Virus genome (UHGV): UHGV-0150885
Length of the DNA: 57,380 bases
Strand: one strand, 5' to 3'
Origin: a virus
Part shown: one piece after another, positions 12-11,222 of the stretch
How positions within the stretch are numbered: the first letter of the stretch is position 1
How the letters are laid out: the number at the start of each line of letters is the position of its first letter
Translations under genes and position numbers: made by a program
The notes under the pieces: generated by a model
Told to the model about the DNA's origin: nothing
Seen by the model: only the letters and a program-made list of their open reading frames with translations
The model's database searches: none

Positions 12-45
12 GTCTCGTGGGCTCGGAGATGTGTATAAGAGACAG
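12..45. other. Illumina Nextera adapter (Tn5 mosaic end) - technical contaminant at contig end
   Basis: Exact match to GTCTCGTGGGCTCGG + AGATGTGTATAAGAGACAG (Nextera read-2 adapter with 19-bp ME). Confidence 0.9.
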
Positions 46-2533: not shown

Positions 2534-2736
2534 AAAAACCGCATAACGTCCTGATAGCGGTAAAGGTGGTTACATCCGGGGAAGGGGAGAGCAGCGGGCG
2601 CGGGGAATGGTGTTCCGCTGTTCTTCCACGCTTTACGCCACTTGTAAAACGTTCCCCGGCTAATGCCACCTAACATCTTACAGATATTTTCCGTCGTGAT
2701 TAGTATCGTCGTTTCCTTATCGCTGATCATATTCAT
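2494..2736 (-). CDS. xis: Excisionase/AlpA-like DNA-binding protein
   Basis: Start MNMISDK with GGGGA SD; motif ICKMLGGISRGTFYKWRK typical of AlpA/Xis HTH; adjacent and convergent to int. Confidence 0.6.
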   Translation of the reverse strand: MNMISDKETTILITTENICKMLGGISRGTFYKWRKAWKNSGTPFPAPAALPFPGCNHLYRYQDVMRFFHERGLISTRDKT

Positions 2737-3389
2737 TTCCCCGTGTATTCGACGTGTCCGATACATCCATCAATAATAGCTTGCGCCATGTTGCGATAAT
2801 CGTGTGAAAACTCATTGTCGCGGTTAAAATTAATTTCTTTTGCTGCGTCTTCACCGATAACCTTAGTGGCAAGTGCAAACGCAATTTCAGCCAGTATTTT
2901 TTCTTTCGGATCTACATACAACTTATGAGCGAAAGGCTTCCATTCCCCGGCTTGTTCAAAATCAGGCGCATCCATTTCTACAAAAAGAGCAAGGCGATCA
3001 CTTATATACTTGTATTTCAGAATAACATATTTCCGACCATCGACAGGATCTAGAAGCTCAAGCCATACTCCGCATGGCGGCTTTTCTCCTGCCATCCATT
3101 CCGTAACTTCTGGCGTATCGCAATCATGCCGCTCATCTTCGATTAATTCGTCAATGATTTCACTTTCTTTATTCATGCCATCATCATCTTTATTAGATAA
3201 ATTGGCATATTTATCAAACTTCCAGCTTGCCGCCATAACAGAATAAGTGCCGCGAGTATCAGCGCGGACACCAACTAAATAGCATGATCCAAAATTATAT
3301 TCTTCCCTGCATGTCGATACTTCGAACGATGGGTAGCATTCAGGGTTAGTGCGATGGCTAATTATACCGATTACTTTTGATTTATTCAT
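2733..3389 (-). CDS. Hypothetical protein (218 aa, acidic)
   Basis: ORF track; start chosen at ATG with GAGGA SD; no recognisable domain. Confidence 0.5.
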   Translation of the reverse strand: MNKSKVIGIISHRTNPECYPSFEVSTCREEYNFGSCYLVGVRADTRGTYSVMAASWKFDKYANLSNKDDDGMNKESEIIDELIEDERHDCDTPEVTEWMAGEKPPCGVWLELLDPVDGRKYVILKYKYISDRLALFVEMDAPDFEQAGEWKPFAHKLYVDPKEKILAEIAFALATKVIGEDAAKEINFNRDNEFSHDYRNMAQAIIDGCIGHVEYTGK

Positions 3390-3403
3390 TTGCTTATCCT
3401 CAG

Positions 3404-3580
3404 TCACGCCACGGTTACATTGTCAACCTTGATATAATATTCAGGGTTGTTTTCTATTTCAGATTTAAACTTAGAAAAACATTCACGCCATTCATTTGCT
3501 GGTCTACTAAAATAATAAACTGTATGGTTTTCTATTTTGTACAGGATACCAGTAACCTTAGCTTTGTAATAACTAACCAT
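3404..3580 (-). CDS. Small hypothetical protein (~57 aa)
   Basis: ATG overlapping ninB stop (TAATG); MVSYYKAKVTGILYKIENHTVYYFSRPANEWRECFSKF... Confidence 0.3.
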   Translation of the reverse strand: MVSYYKAKVTGILYKIENHTVYYFSRPANEWRECFSKFKSEIENNPEYYIKVDNVTVA

Positions 3581-4214: not shown

Positions 4215-4421
4215 TTACACAATCCGCATTGTGTTTCTTAATTCCCCACGCAGCGCCCGCAACGCCTCACGAATTGGAACGAAAGCCCAGCTAAATCTTA
4301 CGTGTCTGTATTTGCGCATTAGCGGAGGTGTATAAACCATTGCGCCACAAGAATTGCATGGAAAACGGAAATGTGATTCATCAATGAATGTTTCAACTGA
4401 ATAAAAGATTACCCGTCTCAT
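4215..4421 (-). CDS. Hypothetical Cys-containing small protein (68 aa)
   Basis: ORF track; CNSCGAMVYTPP motif; coupled to neighbours. Confidence 0.4.
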   Translation of the reverse strand: MRRVIFYSVETFIDESHFRFPCNSCGAMVYTPPLMRKYRHVRFSWAFVPIREALRALRGELRNTMRIV

Positions 4422-4945
4422 AATTCTAACCCCGTTTCACCGTTAAGTTTTTCGATTTCAAATGCTGGTTTATCCGGTAACAAGCCGTTATTTTTCCGGT
4501 ATTCGTTCAGGCGGCTGTTAAATTCAAATACGATAGGACTTGAACAACCATAGAAGCGAGCTGATCTAAAAAAATATTTCCCGTCAAATTTATTGACAGT
4601 TAATAAATTTTCACTACCTAACATCTTTAAAACCCGACAGATTTTTCTCTGTTTTATTTCGAGTTTTAATTTCTTCTTAACATCCTCAGCAGAAAAATAA
4701 TCGCTACTATTCAGAAATAAAGGCATGATTTTTTTTATTGCCATTTCGCGCACTGACTTCAAGCAATATGATAACCGTGGTCCTCCCATTTCCACAGGAA
4801 TAATAGCGCCGTCAGAAACCATATCACGCAAACTGTTAACAATCTCGATTTCAGGACCTGGAATAGATTTAATGATTGTTGCTTCACCCGCGACAGTAGC
4901 ATCCTGTAAAAAATTCGCTATTTGTGTTTTATAAGTGGTTTTCAT
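4418..4945 (-). CDS. Hypothetical protein (~175 aa) in AT-rich segment
   Basis: Start MKTTYKTQ with GAGG SD; local A+T richness suggests acquired moron. Confidence 0.5.
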   Translation of the reverse strand: MKTTYKTQIANFLQDATVAGEATIIKSIPGPEIEIVNSLRDMVSDGAIIPVEMGGPRLSYCLKSVREMAIKKIMPLFLNSSDYFSAEDVKKKLKLEIKQRKICRVLKMLGSENLLTVNKFDGKYFFRSARFYGCSSPIVFEFNSRLNEYRKNNGLLPDKPAFEIEKLNGETGLEL

Positions 4946-5024
4946 TGTTTTTAGCCTCGATTTAAGCGCGAAAACAGCCACCAGAAAGCGGTCAGCTTTC
5001 CGGTAAGCCGTTTACTCAAGTTAA

Positions 5025-6446
5025 TTAAAAGGATGAGTTATTCTGGTTGTTTCGTGGGGAGAATCGGCTTGCCGCCGGACGTTGTTGCATTGACTGGATG
5101 CAAGCGGACGCCGCGCGGGCCTGGTCACATGGTAAGATATTGCCGTTGTCGTCAAACCGCTGGTAAACAGTGCCCGTTTTCCCGTGACGGTTTTTTGAAA
5201 CGATGATCTCCATATATTCGCGGGCAACAGATTGTTCGTTGTAGTAGCCATCACGGTAGACCATGATGATCCGGTCCGCATCTTGCTCCAGATTACCGGA
5301 ATCACGCAGATCAGAATTGTTCGGGCGCTTGTTCGGTCGTTCCTCAACGCGGCGGGATAATTGCGCCAGCGCCGCCACTGGTACGCGCAATTCCTTCGCC
5401 ATCATTTTCAATGACCGCGACAATTGCCCTACGGCAAGATCATGACGTTCGGCCTTAGCCAGCTTCATTAACCCGATGTAGTCAATCATTACCATTCCCA
5501 GGTTGGGATGGTCCTGTTTCATACGTTCGGTGGTGGCGCGTATTTCCTCGACCGTTAACTGCGATGCGTCAACAATCCATACGTCGAGATCGGCGAGGGC
5601 GCTCATACCCTGGGCGACGTGCGCCCACCCCTCATCGTCAAGTTTTACCGGATTACGCAAACAATCCGTTGATAAATTCCCCGCACCAGCGATGGCCCGC
5701 TCAGTTATTTGATCGAGCGACATTTCAAGCGTAAAGAGCAAAACACCGACACGATTTCCTTCGCCGCCAGGGTAAGGTCTCTCAGCCGCCGCGCGGGCAA
5801 TTGCCAACGCTAACGCCGATTTACCAGATCCCGGACGTCCGGCGATGAGCACTAAATCAGTGGCGTTAATGCCGCCTAACATTTCGTCGAGTGGGTCAAT
5901 CCCTGTTTTGATGTTGTCGGAGTTTACGCCGCATTCCATGCGCTTACTTAGCACTTCCGTGTATTCCTGCACCGCGTCGCGCAACAGCACCGGGAGGATT
6001 TCGCCTTTCGTTACTTTTAATTTTGAATACCGGGAATCAAAATCTTTCATCGTTTCCCTGACAACTTCAAGCGTACCCGTTTCCAGTTTGTAGCGAATAT
6101 CTTCTATCAGGTCCAACATTTGCCGCCGCTGGTGTTCTTCCTGCAATAATTCGGCATACCCTTTCAGGTTGGCAGCCGAAGGACACGATCGCGCCGTTTG
6201 CATCAGCGGTATGAAGTTTTCGTTACCGATTTCATCGCCAACCAATAACGCATCGATGAGATTTCTGTTTCTGGCTTGCGCCCGGATAATTTCGAACGCC
6301 CGTCTGTATAGCGGAATAGTGAAAACTTCTGGATCGAGTGTAGCAAGAACATCTTGCGCGTTAGGGGTAAGCCCGCCTAACAGAAGTCCACCAATAACCG
6401 CCGATTCCCTTTCTTGCCGCAATGAGTTTACTTGCTCAGTTATCAT
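5025..6446 (-). CDS. dnaB: Replicative DNA helicase, DnaB family
   Basis: 473 aa; Walker A GRPGSGKSALAL, DnaB N-terminal and RecA-like core motifs; strong GGAGG SD. Confidence 0.9.
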   Translation of the reverse strand: MITEQVNSLRQERESAVIGGLLLGGLTPNAQDVLATLDPEVFTIPLYRRAFEIIRAQARNRNLIDALLVGDEIGNENFIPLMQTARSCPSAANLKGYAELLQEEHQRRQMLDLIEDIRYKLETGTLEVVRETMKDFDSRYSKLKVTKGEILPVLLRDAVQEYTEVLSKRMECGVNSDNIKTGIDPLDEMLGGINATDLVLIAGRPGSGKSALALAIARAAAERPYPGGEGNRVGVLLFTLEMSLDQITERAIAGAGNLSTDCLRNPVKLDDEGWAHVAQGMSALADLDVWIVDASQLTVEEIRATTERMKQDHPNLGMVMIDYIGLMKLAKAERHDLAVGQLSRSLKMMAKELRVPVAALAQLSRRVEERPNKRPNNSDLRDSGNLEQDADRIIMVYRDGYYNEQSVAREYMEIIVSKNRHGKTGTVYQRFDDNGNILPCDQARAASACIQSMQQRPAASRFSPRNNQNNSSF

Positions 6447-7583: not shown

Positions 7584-7616
7584 AACGTTATTTCCTCCGG
7601 TTTACGGAATGTATAC

Positions 7617-8387
7617 TCATTCAGAAAAAATAATATTCAATAACTCTTTAAATCTTGATTCATAAAAATGCGGCTGTGTTTCTCTCTGATTAGATGGGTT
7701 GGTTATATTTTTTCCGTATCGCAGACCATACACAGTTACATTCCAGAATCTTTTTTCTCCGCATTTTGCTTTACGATACTTGCGATCGACAATGCCTTTG
7801 CGTTCAAGGATTGGGTAAACTTCACGCGCAGTCATGCCAACGTTATTTTCTTCTAACAATGCTGTCAGTGATTTGGTCACGCGGCTTGATCCGTCCACAG
7901 CATCAGAAGGAGCGTCAATAGCGTAATGCGGAAGGATAGGAGGAATATTATATTCCTTCTCAATCTTCTGTAGCATACCTAACTTACCTGAATTACTCAT
8001 ATTCAGCATTCGGCCCGCCGTTTCAGCAAAAGCAAGAACATTACTGATCTGTGTGTTACCGTAATTTGGAACAGCATTTTGCCGGACTGCGTTTTCAAGT
8101 TCCTGCCAGCGGTCAACGATCCGCGCCGTAAGTTCAGGGCAAAGCTGTGCGACCACAATAATACTATCTCGCTTGCCTTCCTCCCCTTCAAAAACGTAAG
8201 CGTCCACGCCACGAATCAATCCTAAGTTATTGATTTTTCCGAAAACCTCAATTTGAGGAAGTCGGATAATCCCATTATTAGCAAGCGTCTCGATAGTGCG
8301 TTTTACGTTATCATGACGCTTACCAACCAACTCTGAAATTTCAATACTATTCATTTTAACGTTATCAAAAACCATTAATTCAGACAT
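7617..8387 (-). CDS. Rha-family phage regulatory protein/antirepressor
   Basis: Start MSELMVF with GGAG SD; N-terminal Rha/Bro-N-like domain (VFDNVKMNSIEISELVGKRHDNVKR). Confidence 0.7.
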   Translation of the reverse strand: MSELMVFDNVKMNSIEISELVGKRHDNVKRTIETLANNGIIRLPQIEVFGKINNLGLIRGVDAYVFEGEEGKRDSIIVVAQLCPELTARIVDRWQELENAVRQNAVPNYGNTQISNVLAFAETAGRMLNMSNSGKLGMLQKIEKEYNIPPILPHYAIDAPSDAVDGSSRVTKSLTALLEENNVGMTAREVYPILERKGIVDRKYRKAKCGEKRFWNVTVYGLRYGKNITNPSNQRETQPHFYESRFKELLNIIFSE

Positions 8388-8519: not shown

Positions 8520-8621
8520 TTATGGATTGACTAGAAGGAACAAACCGCCGAACAAGGCGACGTTAACAGCGATTGCCGCAGCGATGGCAAAAGCCAGGGC
8601 GAAAACGTGTTTACCGTCCAT
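8520..8621 (-). CDS. Tiny hydrophobic peptide (33 aa)
   Basis: MDGKHVFALAFAIAAAIAVNVALFGGLFLLVNP; AGAGAGG-like SD; below ORF-track cutoff. Confidence 0.25.
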   Translation of the reverse strand: MDGKHVFALAFAIAAAIAVNVALFGGLFLLVNP

Positions 8622-8745
8622 TTTAAAATCCTCTCTGTAACGCTCTCTGACGAGCTAATCGCAAAAAGGTAAGCAAGTGTAGCACCCAATGCGATTTAGC
8701 TCGCTGGTGAGCTTGTTTTGTGGGTAATTTTGGATTTTTGGTAAT

Positions 8746-9858
8746 TCATGATGGTATATGTTGGAAGTTACGCGTCTTGCGGAGCGTTTCCGGCTTCAAC
8801 AGAAAATCTATATCAGCCAGCCAGCCGCTTTCATTCTCACCGAAATAGAAGTTCGGCGCATCAGCTTTAAATTTCTGGAAGTAAGCAATAAAGCTGTCAA
8901 CGCTTTTGTCTTTCAGGTAGTCAGATAGCGAATGGATCTTACGTTCAATATCCCGATCCAGTTCGGCAGGTGGTAACAGGCCGTCAAACGTGCTGTTAAA
9001 TGCTTCCACCACGTCGGCAGCGTTTACAGTAGCTGACAGCTTGCGCCATTGTTCAGCATCAGCCAGATACCCATCAAACTTAGTTACCCGGCAAATGTTA
9101 ACAGGCTTAGGCACTCCACCACGGCTACGCCATTGCGTCAAAGCCCACTCAATTACTAATGTGATCTCATCCTCCGTGTATGCCTTACGTGTTTTTGTTT
9201 CTGTCAGTAGTTCGATGAATGGCTTAGTATCACGACATTTGCATCCTGCCTTTTCGTTGTAGAAAGCCAGGCAACGCAATGCAGATTCGCTTATCTGAAA
9301 GTCACCGTCCTGATTGACTTCTTTTCTTTTTATATTTTTCTTTTCTTCTTCTGTTTCTATTTCTTCTTCTACTTCTACTTCTAATCCATGGTTGTGCCAT
9401 GGTTGTGCCATGGCTGCATCATGGTTGTGCCATGGTTTTTCTTTTTCTGTATCTGGTGAATTATTTACTTCCACTAAAGGATTATCTAACTTTTTATTTT
9501 TTTTGACGTTTAGCCTTTTAATTGCCTCTCTAAATTCGCTTTTTGACGAAGCCATTGATTGATCAAGTCTTTTTGCTAACGACAGGCATCTTACAACGCC
9601 ATGTGAGCAGTCGAACAAGCCAACTTCGATGAAGTATCTCATCATTTCTTCTACACGTTTCGGACTTGATCCTACGTTCCGGGCAATGATTCTTGCATCG
9701 TGTTTTAGTTCGAATGTCAGATTATGTTGATCTACTTCGTAGGCTATTAACTCGATGCAATACCAATAAAGCCCGTATCCTTCCAGGCCATAATCAAGCA
9801 AAACGTTTTGAAGTTTTTCATCGCGGTTCGCATCGCTATCATGCTTAAACCACTTCAT
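8746..9858 (-). CDS. Replication initiation/replisome organiser protein (O-like)
   Basis: 370 aa; N-terminal WFKHDSDANRDEKLQNVLLDYGLEGYGLYWYCIEL replisome-organiser-like domain; iterons inside; upstream of helicase. Confidence 0.65.
   Translation of the reverse strand: MKWFKHDSDANRDEKLQNVLLDYGLEGYGLYWYCIELIAYEVDQHNLTFELKHDARIIARNVGSSPKRVEEMMRYFIEVGLFDCSHGVVRCLSLAKRLDQSMASSKSEFREAIKRLNVKKNKKLDNPLVEVNNSPDTEKEKPWHNHDAAMAQPWHNHGLEVEVEEEIETEEEKKNIKRKEVNQDGDFQISESALRCLAFYNEKAGCKCRDTKPFIELLTETKTRKAYTEDEITLVIEWALTQWRSRGGVPKPVNICRVTKFDGYLADAEQWRKLSATVNAADVVEAFNSTFDGLLPPAELDRDIERKIHSLSDYLKDKSVDSFIAYFQKFKADAPNFYFGENESGWLADIDFLLKPETLRKTRNFQHIPS
9387..9435. repeat. Iteron-like 11-bp tandem repeats (CATGGTTGTGC x4.5) with adjacent pyrimidine-rich tract; candidate origin inside initiator gene
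   Basis: catggttgtgc catggttgtgc catggctgcat catggttgtgc catgg; encodes MAQPWHNH repeats. Confidence 0.6.
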
Positions 9859-9860
9859 TT

Positions 9861-10115
9861 CTATTCCTCCGGCAGCATTACCAGGTAAACGTCATTTACC
9901 GGGTAAGGGTTACAAATAAATCCTTTGTGTGTTAATCCGTTGATAGCAAGTATCACCGTACTTACAGGAATTTCACACATTTTTGCGATTTCTTGGTGTG
10001 ATACCCTGGCGTGGCGGCGATTATCTGCCTTTTCAGCCAGAGCCATTAAGACAAGTTTTTGAATCGGGCTGTTAAGTTCCACTTTCCAAGCCTCATTCAT
10101 CATGTGCATACTCAT
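9861..10115 (-). CDS. HTH DNA-binding protein (Cro/CII-like regulator or O N-terminal-like)
   Basis: 84 aa; VSHQEIAKMCEIPVSTVILAINGL HTH; AGGAG SD; first gene of leftward operon. Confidence 0.55.
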   Translation of the reverse strand: MSMHMMNEAWKVELNSPIQKLVLMALAEKADNRRHARVSHQEIAKMCEIPVSTVILAINGLTHKGFICNPYPVNDVYLVMLPEE

Positions 10116-10223
10116 TGTGTTTCTCCTATGGTTAAAATGAACGCGCGGGCGGGTATCCCATTAGCATTAGGTAGCAGTGATTGACCGCTCAACAGATCCC
10201 GCCGTTGCGTGATATTTGTTTTT

Positions 10224-10255
10224 CGCTTCGCAGCGACACCAGGTTTTTAAAGAGC
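10224..10255 (-). promoter_or_regulatory. nutR-like site (boxA GCTCTTTAAAAA + boxB hairpin CGCTGCGAAGCG) on leftward transcript
   Basis: Reverse complement reads GCTCTTTAAAAACC...CGC-TGCGAA-GCG; same boxA as two + strand nut sites. Confidence 0.4.
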
Positions 10256-10335
10256 TTTTAAGGTATGCGCCTTTTTGTGCTATTCCCTCATCTTTTTTCT
10301 TGCGTCTTTGCAAGTCCGGCTTTACCTTGTCTGCA

Positions 10336-10363
10336 AGTTTACAGAATGGTGTTTTTCGGTCAA
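10336..10363 (-). promoter_or_regulatory. Candidate PR promoter (TTGACC -16- TAAACT) for leftward early operon
   Basis: Hexamers on - strand between cI start and first leftward gene. Confidence 0.4.
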
Positions 10364-10422
10364 GGCTTGAAAAATACATTTTGTGACTTGCATCAAACTT
10401 TTTAGGGCGATAGGGTAGCGAT

Positions 10423-11070
10423 ATGAAAACAAAATGGTATGACTTAGCAAAACAACTCATGCGGGCGCAAGGCATGAGCCAGGATTCATTGGCGGATCTC
10501 ATGGGGATCACAAAAGGCGGCTTATCTCACTGGCTGAATGGTCGCCGCGAGCCAAATCTTGAAGATATTGCGCGGATTATGCGGGCGCTTGGTCGTCGGC
10601 AGTTTACGGTCACTCATGACGGGATGGTTATCGATGATTCAGTTTCAAATACGTTGCCGGGAGCGCCGCCGCTCGACGTGGGACGTTATCCGGTTATTGA
10701 CTGGAAAGACGCAGGAAACTACATGGAAGAAGCAAAACGCGCATTACTACCACACGTTAACACGAGCGTGATTTGTTCGGATGATAGTTATTGGCTGGTC
10801 GCAAAAGGTGAGTCAATGAACGCACCGCAGGGATTAAGTATCCCGGCAGGGACGATGATACTTGTCGATCCGCACGCGCCAGCTATTGACGGCAAACTGG
10901 TTATAGCCCAACTGGAGGAAGGGCAAACGCCGACGTTTAAACAGTTAATCATTGATGGAGGTCAAAGGCTTTTACGTTCGCTTAATCCGCTGTACCCACC
11001 AATCCCGCTAAACCCTGAATCAAAAATTATTGGCGTGGTGGTGGATGCAAAGATCGTAAACCTGCCATAA
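10423..11070 (+). CDS. cI: CI-like repressor, HTH-XRE + LexA-like peptidase S24 domain
   Basis: 215 aa; N-term HTH (QDSLADLMGITKGGLSHWLNG); C-term S24 motifs (KGESM ... TFKQL). Confidence 0.85.
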   Translation: MKTKWYDLAKQLMRAQGMSQDSLADLMGITKGGLSHWLNGRREPNLEDIARIMRALGRRQFTVTHDGMVIDDSVSNTLPGAPPLDVGRYPVIDWKDAGNYMEEAKRALLPHVNTSVICSDDSYWLVAKGESMNAPQGLSIPAGTMILVDPHAPAIDGKLVIAQLEEGQTPTFKQLIIDGGQRLLRSLNPLYPPIPLNPESKIIGVVVDAKIVNLP

Positions 11071-11100: not shown

Positions 11101-11180
11101 GCCCGGAAAGCACCAAAACGTAAACCGAAAACAGTTTTTATTGTTTGAATATCAATGAGATAGAAAATATTTTAAAAAAG

Positions 11181-11222
11181 TATACAAAATGGATTGACTC
11201 AACATATCACGGGGCGTATATT
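11181..11222 (+). promoter_or_regulatory. Candidate PL promoter: TATACAAAATGG box, -35 TTGACT, 17 bp, -10 TATATT
   Basis: Near-consensus sigma70 hexamers with 17-bp spacer upstream of nutL and N-like gene. Confidence 0.5.

What the first reader, a model, noticed from the sequence alone, without database searches (positions are those of the whole stretch)
9337..9435. Iteron-like 11-bp repeats and pyrimidine-rich tract inside the replication initiator gene
Four and a half tandem copies of CATGGTTGTGC (11-bp period, about one helical turn) are preceded by a 50-bp pyrimidine-rich tract with CTTCTACTT repeats, all within the coding sequence of the O-like initiator, where they encode MAQPWHNH repeats and a poly-Glu linker. 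Lambda has its origin inside gene O; by analogy this is the likely prophage ori.
Basis: partly seen in the sequence, partly recalled or inferred. Interest (0 to 1): 0.5.

Follow-up and report, generated by a model that had tools for sequence, protein, structure and literature searches.

The report
Replication origin inside phage initiator gene
Inside the replication-initiator gene of this temperate coliphage lie five evenly spaced copies of a short palindrome followed by an easily melted purine-rich stretch, a layout also found in distant relatives and in phages lambda and SPP1, so it is very probably the phage's replication origin.

Summary
Five CCATGG-type cores lie exactly 11 bp apart at 9386-9441. 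CCATGG occurs nowhere else in the 57 kb window. Next to them is the most strand-asymmetric, low-stability tract of the window (9314-9386). Both sit in the part of gene 8746-9858 (- strand) that encodes a predicted disordered linker between a winged-helix Lin1244_N (DUF4373) domain and a C-terminal domain distantly related to SPP1 gp38.

Relatives support a DNA-level function:
- E. coli mEp021-group phages carry a different 11-bp array (GGGTCATGA x4) at the same spot.
- mEp021 itself has a different N-domain and four 23-bp repeats.
- In 17 of 27 diverse DUF4373 genes the strongest 11-bp periodicity of the locus falls just after the domain, followed by a purine tract.
- Cores are invariant while spacers and synonymous sites vary.
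- An 11-bp period cannot be a peptide repeat.
- SPP1 gene 38, whose internal oriL is experimentally established, shows an 11-bp repeat followed by an AT-rich repeat at the same relative position.

Best reading (about 0.75): this is the phage origin, with iterons bound by the gene's own product and an adjacent unwinding element. It is a new member of a known kind. No binding or replication was tested. The gene is not a lambda O family member.

The parts
8746..9858 (-). Replication initiator gene (370 aa): Lin1244_N winged-helix domain, disordered linker, C-terminal domain
   Evidence: ORF. Pfam Lin1244_N covers aa 3-85, 43 bits against a cutoff of 25. PHROG 20981 matches full length; PHROGs 428 and 345 ('replication initiation') match the C-terminal half.
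9505..9858 (-). Coding region for the N-terminal winged-helix (Lin1244_N) domain, aa 1-118; proposed origin-binding domain
9442..9535 (.). AT-rich flank on the N-domain side of the array (GC about 0.29-0.35)
   Evidence: Composition profile. 9436-9535 is the 4th least stable 100-mer of the window and 9460-9499 the 6th least stable 40-mer.
9386..9441 (.). Iteron array: five cores spaced exactly 11 bp (CCATGG at 9386, 9397, 9408, 9430; TCATGG at 9419); unit on the coding strand is GCACAACCATG
   Evidence: This is the only place in the window where CCATGG occurs. Relatives carry arrays at the equivalent position.
9314..9385 (-). Purine-rich (coding strand), AT-rich tract (GTAGAA/GAAGAA repeats) directly after the last iteron; proposed DNA-unwinding element; encodes LEVEVEEEIETEEEKKNIKRK
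   Evidence: TRF periods 6/12/18. 89% pyrimidine on the + strand, the top R/Y asymmetry of the window. 9325-9384 is the 5th least stable 60-mer and, unlike most of the others listed, is inside a gene. An AGAAGAGAA-type tract follows the array in most DUF4373 genes.
9310..9498 (-). Coding region for the predicted disordered inter-domain linker (aa 121-183), which contains the array and the tract
   Evidence: AF2 pLDDT is below 40 over aa 121-183. The peptide sequence here is not conserved between iteron types.
8746..9312 (-). Coding region for the C-terminal domain (aa 183-370), shared with HTH_36-type 'O' proteins of mEp021-like phages; proposed helicase/replisome-recruiting module
   Evidence: About 80% identical to mEp021, mEp554 and mEp010 'replication protein O' C-termini. 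Weak Phg_2220_C match, E 0.0094, 16.4 bits against a cutoff of 27. BLASTP aa 196-246 against SPP1 gp38 157-207, E 0.001. PHROGs shared with gp38.
9861..10115 (-). Small stand-alone HTH_36 gene (84 aa) immediately upstream; context only, probably not the iteron reader
   Evidence: Pfam HTH_36. Its sequence variants do not track iteron type. It is absent from L099, which still has the array.
5025..6446 (-). Phage-encoded DnaB-like replicative helicase (473 aa), the likely client of the initiator
   Evidence: Pfam DnaB_C 1.2e-76 and DnaB N-terminal domain 5.5e-12.

Best explanation
The segment 9314-9535 is the phage's origin of theta-type replication, embedded in the linker-coding part of its own initiator gene.

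Proposed mechanism, steps inferred unless marked otherwise:
1. The initiator is made from the early leftward operon.
2. Its N-terminal winged-helix region (Lin1244_N plus the following helix, aa about 1-135) binds the five palindromic CCATGG cores. The 11-bp spacing puts these on roughly one face of the helix, so a cooperative oligomer forms, analogous to the lambda O-some or the SPP1 gp38-oriL complex.
3. The strain melts the adjacent low-stability purine/pyrimidine tract (9314-9385). The AT-rich flank at 9442-9535 is a second candidate.
4. The C-terminal domain recruits the phage's own DnaB-like helicase (5025-6446), and through it the host primase and polymerase.

Shown here: the array, its uniqueness in the window, the low stability of both flanks, conservation of the position across the family, and the co-change of iteron sequence with the protein.

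Inferred only: binding, melting, helicase recruitment, and origin activity itself.
For: (1) The array and flanks are statistically exceptional in the window.

(2) Modular pattern as in lambdoid phages.
- Window, L004 and L005 carry GCACAACCATG units.
- mEp515, MagusPhagus and about 25 E. coli prophage variants carry nnGGGTCATGA x4 at the same spot with the same 11-bp period.
- mEp021 has an HTH_36 N-domain, four 23-bp repeats and the same C-domain.
- Recombination joints lie just 3' of the tract (L006, L016, L036).

(3) Family-wide conservation.
- In 17 of 27 non-redundant Lin1244_N genes from very different bacteria and phages, the strongest 11-bp periodicity of the roughly 5-kb locus falls at aa 106-143 of the gene. 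The chance is about 0.03 per locus.
- The array is followed by an AGAAGAGAA-type tract.

(4) Core sequence tracks protein subfamily: RLD.SMTSN with TCATGA, RTDEYTQK with TCCCGA/GTCGGGA, the window's RLDQSMASSKS with CCATGG. The natural chimera L099 places the linkage in aa about 101-135.

(5) DNA-level constraint.
- 11 is not a multiple of 3, so each copy is read in a different frame.
- Among 23 type-B alleles, 53% of third-codon positions upstream of the array vary, but 0 of 24 core positions do (0 of 7 third positions). All variation is in the spacers or in the degenerate third repeat.
- CCATGG is kept only here in a genome that avoids many 6-bp palindromes.

(6) The array and tract encode a predicted disordered linker flanked by two well-folded domains, and the N-domain has a winged-helix fold.

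(7) Precedent.
- Lambda ori (iterons plus an AT-rich tract) lies in the middle of gene O (PMC7466680, PMC6022878).
- SPP1 oriL (direct repeats plus an AT-rich unwinding element bound by gp38) lies within gene 38 (PMC6316719).
- Gene 38 shows an 11-bp repeat x4.6 at aa 120-137 followed by an AT-rich 9-bp repeat, and shares PHROGs and a weak C-domain match with the window protein.

(8) No other iteron-like array exists in the window.
Against: - No experiment: binding, unwinding and origin firing are untested.
- Protein-iteron co-variation amounts to a handful of independent events. It is confounded by phylogeny and by tight physical linkage, because aa 101-135 are encoded within about 100 nt of the array.
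- The chimera L099 shows that the winged-helix core of the window type works next to TCATGA-type iterons. The core domain is therefore not the sole specificity determinant, or specificity is loose around the shared CATG.
- The purine tract could be partly a by-product of selection for a charged E/K/R-rich linker.
- 10 of the 27 diverse family members did not place their top 11-bp periodicity at this position. For some of them (L044, L080, L090) TRF still finds the array.
- The Pfam match of the C-domain to Phg_2220_C is below threshold.
- No helicase-loader gene was identified.
Confidence: 0.75

Rival explanations
1. The array is an origin, but the repeats are read by another protein (the small upstream HTH_36 protein or a host factor) rather than by the Lin1244_N initiator.
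For: The 84-aa HTH_36 protein resembles the N-terminal DNA-binding domain of O-like initiators in PHROG and is encoded immediately upstream. The winged-helix core of type A coexists with type-B iterons in L099.
Against: Variants of the small HTH protein do not track iteron type: the window-like variant occurs with type-B iterons in L019 and L020, and two other variants also occur with type B. L099 has the array but no small HTH gene. Distant DUF4373 genes keep the array in many different contexts.
Confidence: 0.08
2. The repeats are initiator- or regulator-binding sites used for something other than initiation, such as autoregulation, a transcription roadblock or copy-number handcuffing. The true origin lies elsewhere.
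For: Iterons in plasmids also mediate autorepression and handcuffing (general knowledge). Other AT-rich low-stability regions exist in intergenic DNA at 11135-11194, 7609-7668 and 36-95.
Against: Those other regions have no repeat arrays. The fixed association of the array with a low-stability tract inside the linker region matches mapped origins in lambda and SPP1 (PMC7466680, PMC6316719). No DnaA-box cluster or other origin signature was found elsewhere.
Confidence: 0.08
3. The repeats are neutral products of slippage in low-complexity DNA that encodes a tolerant disordered linker, and have no DNA-level function.
For: The region encodes a linker with pLDDT below 40. Three window units are identical, including their spacers, as recent duplication would give. 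The purine tract is what E/K-rich peptides look like in DNA.
Against: - An 11-bp unit would frameshift unless gained three at a time.
- Position, period and copy number (3-6) are conserved across distant family members with different core sequences.
- Cores are invariant while spacers vary.
- An otherwise avoided palindrome is retained only here.
Confidence: 0.04
4. The array acts as a nucleic-acid structure, through hairpins or cruciforms formed by the tandem palindromes in mRNA or single-stranded DNA. Examples would be translational pausing, a primase or single-strand initiation signal, or an antisense terminator.
For: Both strands fold better than shuffles as ssDNA (z -3.7 and -4.0). The + strand has a terminator-like hairpin plus T-run at 9418-9436. 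Some relatives have inverted pairs such as GTCCCGAC-AGT-GTCGGGAC.
Against: Folding is an automatic consequence of tandem palindromes, and the minimum-energy structure is poorly defined (ensemble frequency 0.02-0.13). Many relatives have only direct repeats with no hairpin potential, for example L063 ACTCCCGA x5. What is conserved is the 11-bp phasing of the cores, not pairing. No + strand gene lies upstream that would need a terminator here.
Confidence: 0.05

Closest known systems
Bacillus phage SPP1 gp38 (replisome organiser) and oriL inside gene 38
   Same: - The origin lies inside the initiator's own gene, just after the N-terminal origin-binding domain.
- It consists of direct repeats followed by an AT-rich unwinding element (PMC6316719).
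- Gene 38 shows an 11-bp-period repeat x4.6 at aa 120-137, then an AT-rich 9-bp repeat.
- The linker and C-terminal halves fall in the same PHROGs (428, 20981, 1163, 345), with a weak direct match.
- A DnaB-type helicase is phage-encoded in both.
   Different: - The N-terminal DNA-binding domain differs: Lin1244_N here, while Pfam finds none in the gp38 N-terminus.
- The repeat sequence differs: GAAACGACAC-like versus palindromic CCATGG cores.
- The Phg_2220_C match of the window protein is below Pfam's threshold.
- No gp39-like loader and no second origin (oriR) were identified here.
Phage lambda O protein and ori-lambda (also Stx phages, P22 gene 18)
   Same: - The origin is in the middle of the initiator gene.
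- Iterons are followed, in the direction of transcription, by an AT-rich tract (PMC7466680, PMC6022878).
- The region encodes an inter-domain linker.
- The N-domain and iterons are exchanged as one module, and the C-domain as another.
- The gene sits in the early operon next to the cI-type repressor.
   Different: - No Phage_rep_O domain.
- Lambda iterons are four 19-bp imperfect inverted repeats (PMC7466680). Here there are five 6-bp palindromes at contiguous 11-bp spacing.
- Lambda uses P to hijack host DnaB, whereas this phage has its own DnaB-like helicase, as P22 does (my knowledge).
- The palindrome after the AT tract, present in most relatives, is missing in the window.
HTH_36-type initiators of the same phage group (mEp021 'replication protein') and Lactococcus phage TP901-1 Rep
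   Same: mEp021 has the same C-terminal domain and the same gene position, with four repeats in the linker-coding region. TP901-1 Rep is annotated 'replication protein, experimental'. To my knowledge, from Ostergaard et al. 2001 (not read here), its origin repeats lie inside the gene.
   Different: The N-domain is HTH_36 and the repeats are 23 bp in mEp021 and 15 bp in TP901-1. The TP901-1 C-domain is DnaB_2/DnaD-like.
Iteron plasmids (RepA, RepE, pi; WH1-WH2 initiators)
   Different: Plasmid iterons are about 17-22 bp, spaced about two helical turns, and lie outside rep (general knowledge). Here there is one turn per site and the sites are inside the gene. No sequence-family relationship was detected.

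Membership tests
Lambda O / Phage_rep_O initiators with ori-lambda-type origin | N-terminal origin-binding domain of the Phage_rep_O family | tested here: not met
   A Pfam scan at E up to 0.01, and of aa 1-127 at E up to 10, returns Lin1244_N and no Phage_rep_O.
Lambda O / Phage_rep_O initiators with ori-lambda-type origin | [quoted passage not shown] | tested here: met
   The array at 9386-9441 and the low-stability tract at 9314-9385 are inside ORF 8746-9858, between the two folded domains.
Lambda O / Phage_rep_O initiators with ori-lambda-type origin | Four (or six) 19-bp imperfect inverted-repeat iterons | tested here: not met
   There are five 6-bp palindromic cores at 11-bp spacing.
Lambda O / Phage_rep_O initiators with ori-lambda-type origin | Initiator binds the iterons, unwinds the AT-rich tract and supports replication | not testable with these tools
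   Requires EMSA or footprinting, KMnO4 or P1 probing, and origin-plasmid assays.
SPP1 gp38-type replisome organiser with gene-internal oriL | C-terminal Phg_2220_C domain | tested here: inconclusive
   The window C-domain matches Phg_2220_C at E 0.0094, 16.4 bits against a cutoff of 27. gp38 matches at 2e-20. BLASTP between the two gives E 0.001 over 51 aa. They share PHROGs 428, 20981, 1163 and 345. Some Lin1244_N proteins, such as P0183, have a significant Phg_2220_C match.
SPP1 gp38-type replisome organiser with gene-internal oriL | Direct repeats followed by an AT-rich element inside the gene, after the N-terminal domain | tested here: met
   The window array is at aa about 140-157 and the tract at about 158-182. 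SPP1 has the 11-bp repeat at aa 120-137 and the AT-rich repeat at 140-150.
SPP1 gp38-type replisome organiser with gene-internal oriL | N-terminal origin-binding domain homologous to that of gp38 | tested here: not met
   No shared Pfam domain. The profile comparison gave only a spurious match, probability 4.7%. The N-terminal PHROGs differ.
SPP1 gp38-type replisome organiser with gene-internal oriL | Accompanying DnaB-type helicase and a dedicated loader (gp40, gp39) | tested here: inconclusive
   A DnaB-like helicase is present at 5025-6446. No loader was recognised among the ORFs scanned, and ORFs 4418-4981 and 2733-3407 have no Pfam match.
Lin1244_N (DUF4373, PF14297) proteins | Pfam PF14297 match above the gathering score | tested here: met
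   43 bits against a cutoff of 25, aa 3-85.
Lin1244_N (DUF4373, PF14297) proteins | (Feature proposed here) 3-6 short cores at 11-bp spacing followed by a purine-rich tract in the DNA just 3' of the domain | tested here: met
   Present in the window. It is the locus-wide periodicity maximum in 17 of 27 non-redundant family members.
Iteron-plasmid Rep (WH1-WH2) replicons | Tandem WH1-WH2 initiator, with 17-22-bp iterons outside the rep gene | tested here: not met
   There is a single winged-helix domain plus an unrelated C-domain, and the sites are inside the gene at 11-bp spacing.

The most novel reading that the evidence does not exclude
DUF4373/Lin1244_N proteins would be a widespread, uncharacterised class of phage origin-binding initiators with a readable recognition code. 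The segment just after the wing (RLD.SMTSN, RTDEYTQK or RLDQSMASS) would specify the palindromic core (TCATGA, GTCNNGAC or CCATGG). The strict one-turn (11-bp) head-to-tail packing would mean the protein forms a continuous filament on one face of the DNA. That filament would extend onto one strand of the adjacent periodic purine tract, comparable to DnaA on DnaA-trios. As a corollary, the 'conserved' peptide motif HDxVMTxS in this family would be imposed by the DNA site being read in three frames, making it a clear case of an overlapping cis-element dictating protein sequence.
Probability: 0.25. Interest if true: 0.6.

Novelty: new member of a known kind. Interest (0 to 1): 0.4.

Why it matters
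- It locates the probable replication origin of the mEp021/mEpimmI group of gut coliphages. The group's genome paper does not mention an origin or iterons (PMC11893012).
- It gives a concrete, testable function to a domain of unknown function (DUF4373/Lin1244_N) found in many phages and prophages across bacterial phyla. The proposal is origin binding, with a predicted site, spacing and specificity region.
- Knowing the origin module helps with annotation, with predicting replication incompatibility or interference between co-resident prophages, and with building phage-derived replicons.
- It is not conceptually new. Origins embedded in initiator genes are textbook for lambda and established for SPP1.

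Tried and rejected
- Small HTH_36 protein as iteron reader: rejected, because its variants do not track iteron type and it is absent from L099.
- TP901-1 Rep as a Lin1244_N relative with a mapped in-gene origin: it turned out to be HTH_36 plus DnaB_2, so it is only an analogue.
- Profile comparison of the family alignment with gp38: spurious.
- DnaA boxes: none near the array and no enrichment.
- Sigma-70-like promoters and terminators in 8600-10500: not above shuffles. The + strand terminator-like hairpin is a by-product of the array.
- Literature searches for DUF4373, Lin1244 and mEp021 found no description of this origin. The library is incomplete, so prior description elsewhere cannot be excluded.
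- Depletion of CCATGG elsewhere as avoidance of off-target initiator sites: not needed, since many unrelated 6-bp palindromes are equally depleted.
Full report
**1. The observation**

The window region 9300-9560 lies inside a 370-aa ORF on the - strand (8746-9858).
- Tandem Repeats Finder gives an 11-bp array of 4.7 copies at 9386-9437, score 76. That is the highest-scoring tandem repeat in the whole 57-kb window.
- Exact CATGGTTGTGC units start at 9387, 9398 and 9420. A variant starts at 9409 and a partial unit at 9431.
- Read as cores, there are five hexamers exactly 11 bp apart: CCATGG at 9386, 9397, 9408 and 9430, and TCATGG at 9419.
- CCATGG occurs only four times in the window, all here, against about 8-12 expected. 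The only YCATGR pairs spaced 11 bp in the window are these. The 11-bp self-similarity is 34 of 44, against at most 27 in 200 shuffles.
- The adjacent tract 9318-9387 is 89% pyrimidine on the + strand, the most strand-asymmetric 70-mer in the window.
- Both flanks of the array (9322-9384 and 9436-9535) fall in the least stable roughly 0.1% of windows by nearest-neighbour energy, although they are coding.

The only overstatement is the peptide repeat: only PWHNH recurs, twice.

**2. The gene**

- Pfam finds Lin1244_N (DUF4373) at aa 3-85. It finds no Phage_rep_O.
- PHROG 20981 covers the whole protein. The C-terminal half matches PHROGs annotated as replication initiation proteins (428, 345).
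- An AlphaFold2 model built on a 111-sequence alignment gives three regions:
  - a confident N-domain, aa 14-118, with winged-helix topology;
  - a low-confidence, presumably disordered, stretch at aa 121-183;
  - a confident helical C-domain, aa 183-290.
- The disordered stretch is encoded by 9310-9498, which is exactly the array plus the tract.
- Gene context is a temperate-phage early region:
  - an S24/HTH cI-like repressor, transcribed divergently (10423-11070);
  - a small HTH_36 gene (9861-10115), followed by the initiator;
  - downstream, a Rha-like gene, an exonuclease, a DnaB-like helicase (5025-6446), NinB and an integrase;
  - ERF and SSB on the other arm.
- The phage belongs to the mEp021/mEpimmI group. 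It is identical over the stretch compared to an IMG/VR contig.

**3. Close relatives**

- mEp515, MagusPhagus and about 25 distinct E. coli prophage alleles have, at the same position, a different array with the same period: nnGGGTCATGA x4 on the coding strand. The same kind of GAA/GTA/TTA purine tract follows it.
- mEp021 and many E. coli prophages have the same C-domain (about 80% identity) joined to an HTH_36 N-domain. There the linker region carries four 23-bp repeats.
- L006, L016 and L036 join a type-B N-domain and array to the window-type downstream sequence. The recombination joints therefore lie just 3' of the tract.
- This is the modular pattern known from lambdoid O genes: DNA-binding domain plus iterons as one unit, C-domain as another.
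- The small upstream HTH_36 protein exists in at least three variants that do not track the array type. It is missing from L099, which keeps the array.
- L099/P0007 is a natural chimera. Its aa 1-100 are of the window type, while aa 101-135 and the array are type B. The array therefore travels with aa about 101-135. That may reflect a specificity determinant in the helix after the wing, or simply tight linkage.

**4. Distant relatives**

I fetched 53 loci with Lin1244_N genes. They came from viral contigs and from genomes of unrelated bacteria, including Helicobacteraceae, Bacteroidetes, Planctomycetes and spirochaetes.
- TRF finds an 11-bp or 22-bp repeat at aa about 110-127 in most of them, followed by an AG-rich tract at aa about 127-150.
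- After removing redundancy (less than 90% identity), the locus-wide maximum of 11-bp periodicity falls at aa 106-143 of the gene in 17 of 27 loci. The chance is about 0.03 per locus, so by my arithmetic the binomial probability is of order 1e-19, ignoring relatedness.
- The cores differ by subfamily: (A/G)GTCATGA(C), GTCCCGAC or its complement GTCGGGAC (both orientations occur), and AGTCAGGAG.
- Core type follows the motif just after the wing: RLD.SMTSN with TCATGA, RTDEYTQK with TCCCGA, and the window's RLDQSMASSKS with CCATGG.
- Because 11 is not a multiple of three, successive copies are read in different frames. The family's peptide motif HDxVMTxS is therefore a translation of the DNA repeat, and selection on a peptide repeat cannot explain the array.
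- Among 23 type-B alleles, 53% of third-codon positions upstream of the array are polymorphic. None of the 24 positions of the three good cores is. All variation in the array is in spacers or in the degenerate third repeat.

**5. Comparison with characterised systems**

- Lambda's origin, iterons plus an AT-rich tract, lies in the middle of gene O (PMC7466680, PMC6022878).
- SPP1 oriL, direct repeats plus an AT-rich unwinding element bound by gp38, lies within gene 38. Replication from it has been reconstituted with gp38, the loader gp39 and the DnaB-type helicase gp40 (PMC6316719).
- I found that gene 38 has an 11-bp-period repeat (4.6 copies) at aa 120-137, followed by an AT-rich 9-bp repeat.
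- The gp38 C-domain is Phg_2220_C (2e-20). The window protein matches that domain only weakly (E 0.0094, below threshold).
- The two proteins share PHROGs 428, 20981, 1163 and 345, and BLASTP aligns window aa 196-246 with gp38 aa 157-207 at E 0.001.
- The N-domains are not detectably related.
- SPP1 gp38/oriL is therefore the closest characterised system. Lambda O is an architectural analogue, not a family member.

**6. Mechanism proposed**

The initiator's winged-helix region binds the five cores. Spacing of about one helical turn places them on one face and favours a cooperative oligomer. The palindromic nature of the cores in all three specificities (CCATGG, TCATGA, GTCNNGAC) suggests two-fold symmetric recognition. 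The complex destabilises the adjacent purine/pyrimidine tract. The C-domain brings in the phage DnaB-like helicase. Only the sequence features and their conservation are shown; every biochemical step is inferred.

**7. Rivals**

- Another protein reads the repeats: 0.08.
- The repeats are binding sites with a non-origin role: 0.08.
- A nucleic-acid structure is the functional element: 0.05. Hairpin folding (z about -4) is an automatic result of tandem palindromes, and many relatives have only direct repeats.
- Neutral slippage in a linker: 0.04.
- The purine tract may owe part of its composition to the charged linker it encodes. However, relatives encode quite different peptides there (EEKRREEK, DKIRIDK, EVEVEEE, DVDVDVD) while keeping an AT-rich, repetitive DNA tract.

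**8. Novelty and interest**

Origins embedded in initiator genes are well known, so this is a new member of a known kind.
- New in detail: the assignment of an origin to the mEp021 group, whose genome paper does not mention an origin or iterons.
- Also new: the family-wide DNA signature that points to DUF4373/Lin1244_N as an origin-binding domain.
- Searches of the available literature found no prior description, but the library is incomplete.
- Interest is moderate (0.4). The result is useful and testable, but not surprising.

Noticed in passing
window 12-45: Exact Nextera read-2 adapter with Tn5 mosaic end (GTCTCGTGGGCTCGGAGATGTGTATAAGAGACAG) at the very start of the window. This is a library or assembly artefact at the contig end, not phage sequence.
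   Followed up: partly
whole window (counts outside 9380-9445): Strong avoidance of many 6-bp palindromes: TCCGGA 3 observed against 37 expected, GGCGCC 0 against 23, GATATC 0 against 18, AAGCTT 0 against 12.5, CCATGG 0 against 8.3. This is consistent with restriction-site avoidance. The iteron array is the only place where CCATGG is tolerated.
   Followed up: partly
L001, L002, L003, L005, L007-L043 about 20-40 nt 3' of the purine tract; absent at window about 9290-9320: A palindrome TACAC-NNN-GTGTA directly follows the AT/purine tract in most relatives, in both Lin1244_N-type and HTH_36-type genes. This is reminiscent of the inverted repeat beside lambda's AT-rich region (my recollection). 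In the window, L006, L016 and L036 it is replaced by an A-rich stretch encoding EEEKKNIKRK.
   Followed up: partly
window 9861-10115 (-): A stand-alone 84-aa HTH_36 protein matches only the N-terminal DNA-binding part of O-like initiators in PHROG. It occupies the position that cII holds in lambda. It occurs in at least three variants that recombine independently of the initiator, and it is absent from L099. Its function is unknown.
   Followed up: partly
L099 (Logan SRR28603152 contig) 1501-2547; protein P0007: A natural chimera has the winged-helix core (aa 1-100) of the window type, while aa 101-135 and the array are of the GGGTCATGA type. This suggests that iteron specificity, or at least linkage, maps to the helix after the wing.
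   Followed up: yes
L098 (SPP1) 7938-8027: Gene 38 of SPP1 has an 11-bp-period repeat (AGAAACGACAC-like, 4.6 copies) at aa 120-137 and an AT-rich 9-bp repeat (AACAATGAT x3.6) right after it. This is the same layout as in DUF4373 genes, even though the N-domain is unrelated.
   Followed up: partly
proteins P0015, P0024, P0025 (relatives): Some alleles replace the first part of the C-domain (window aa about 185-270) with an unrelated-looking segment (…VLDHYNNKFNSRHKEKKYFVKLLKETKTRSAYTEEDLIMVIDWIAETW…) while keeping the last 100 aa. The C-terminal half is therefore itself mosaic.
   Followed up: no
window 9418-9436 (+): A terminator-like hairpin plus T-run lies on the strand antisense to the initiator gene. 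It is formed by two iteron cores and the following T-rich flank. It is probably incidental, since no + strand gene lies upstream.
   Followed up: no
window 10336-10363 (-): A sigma-70-like site (TTGACC, 16-nt spacer, TAAACT) faces the early operon in the gap between the repressor gene and the early genes. It is a plausible PR-like promoter about 0.9 kb upstream of the array, but the number of promoter-like hits in the region is not above chance.
   Followed up: no
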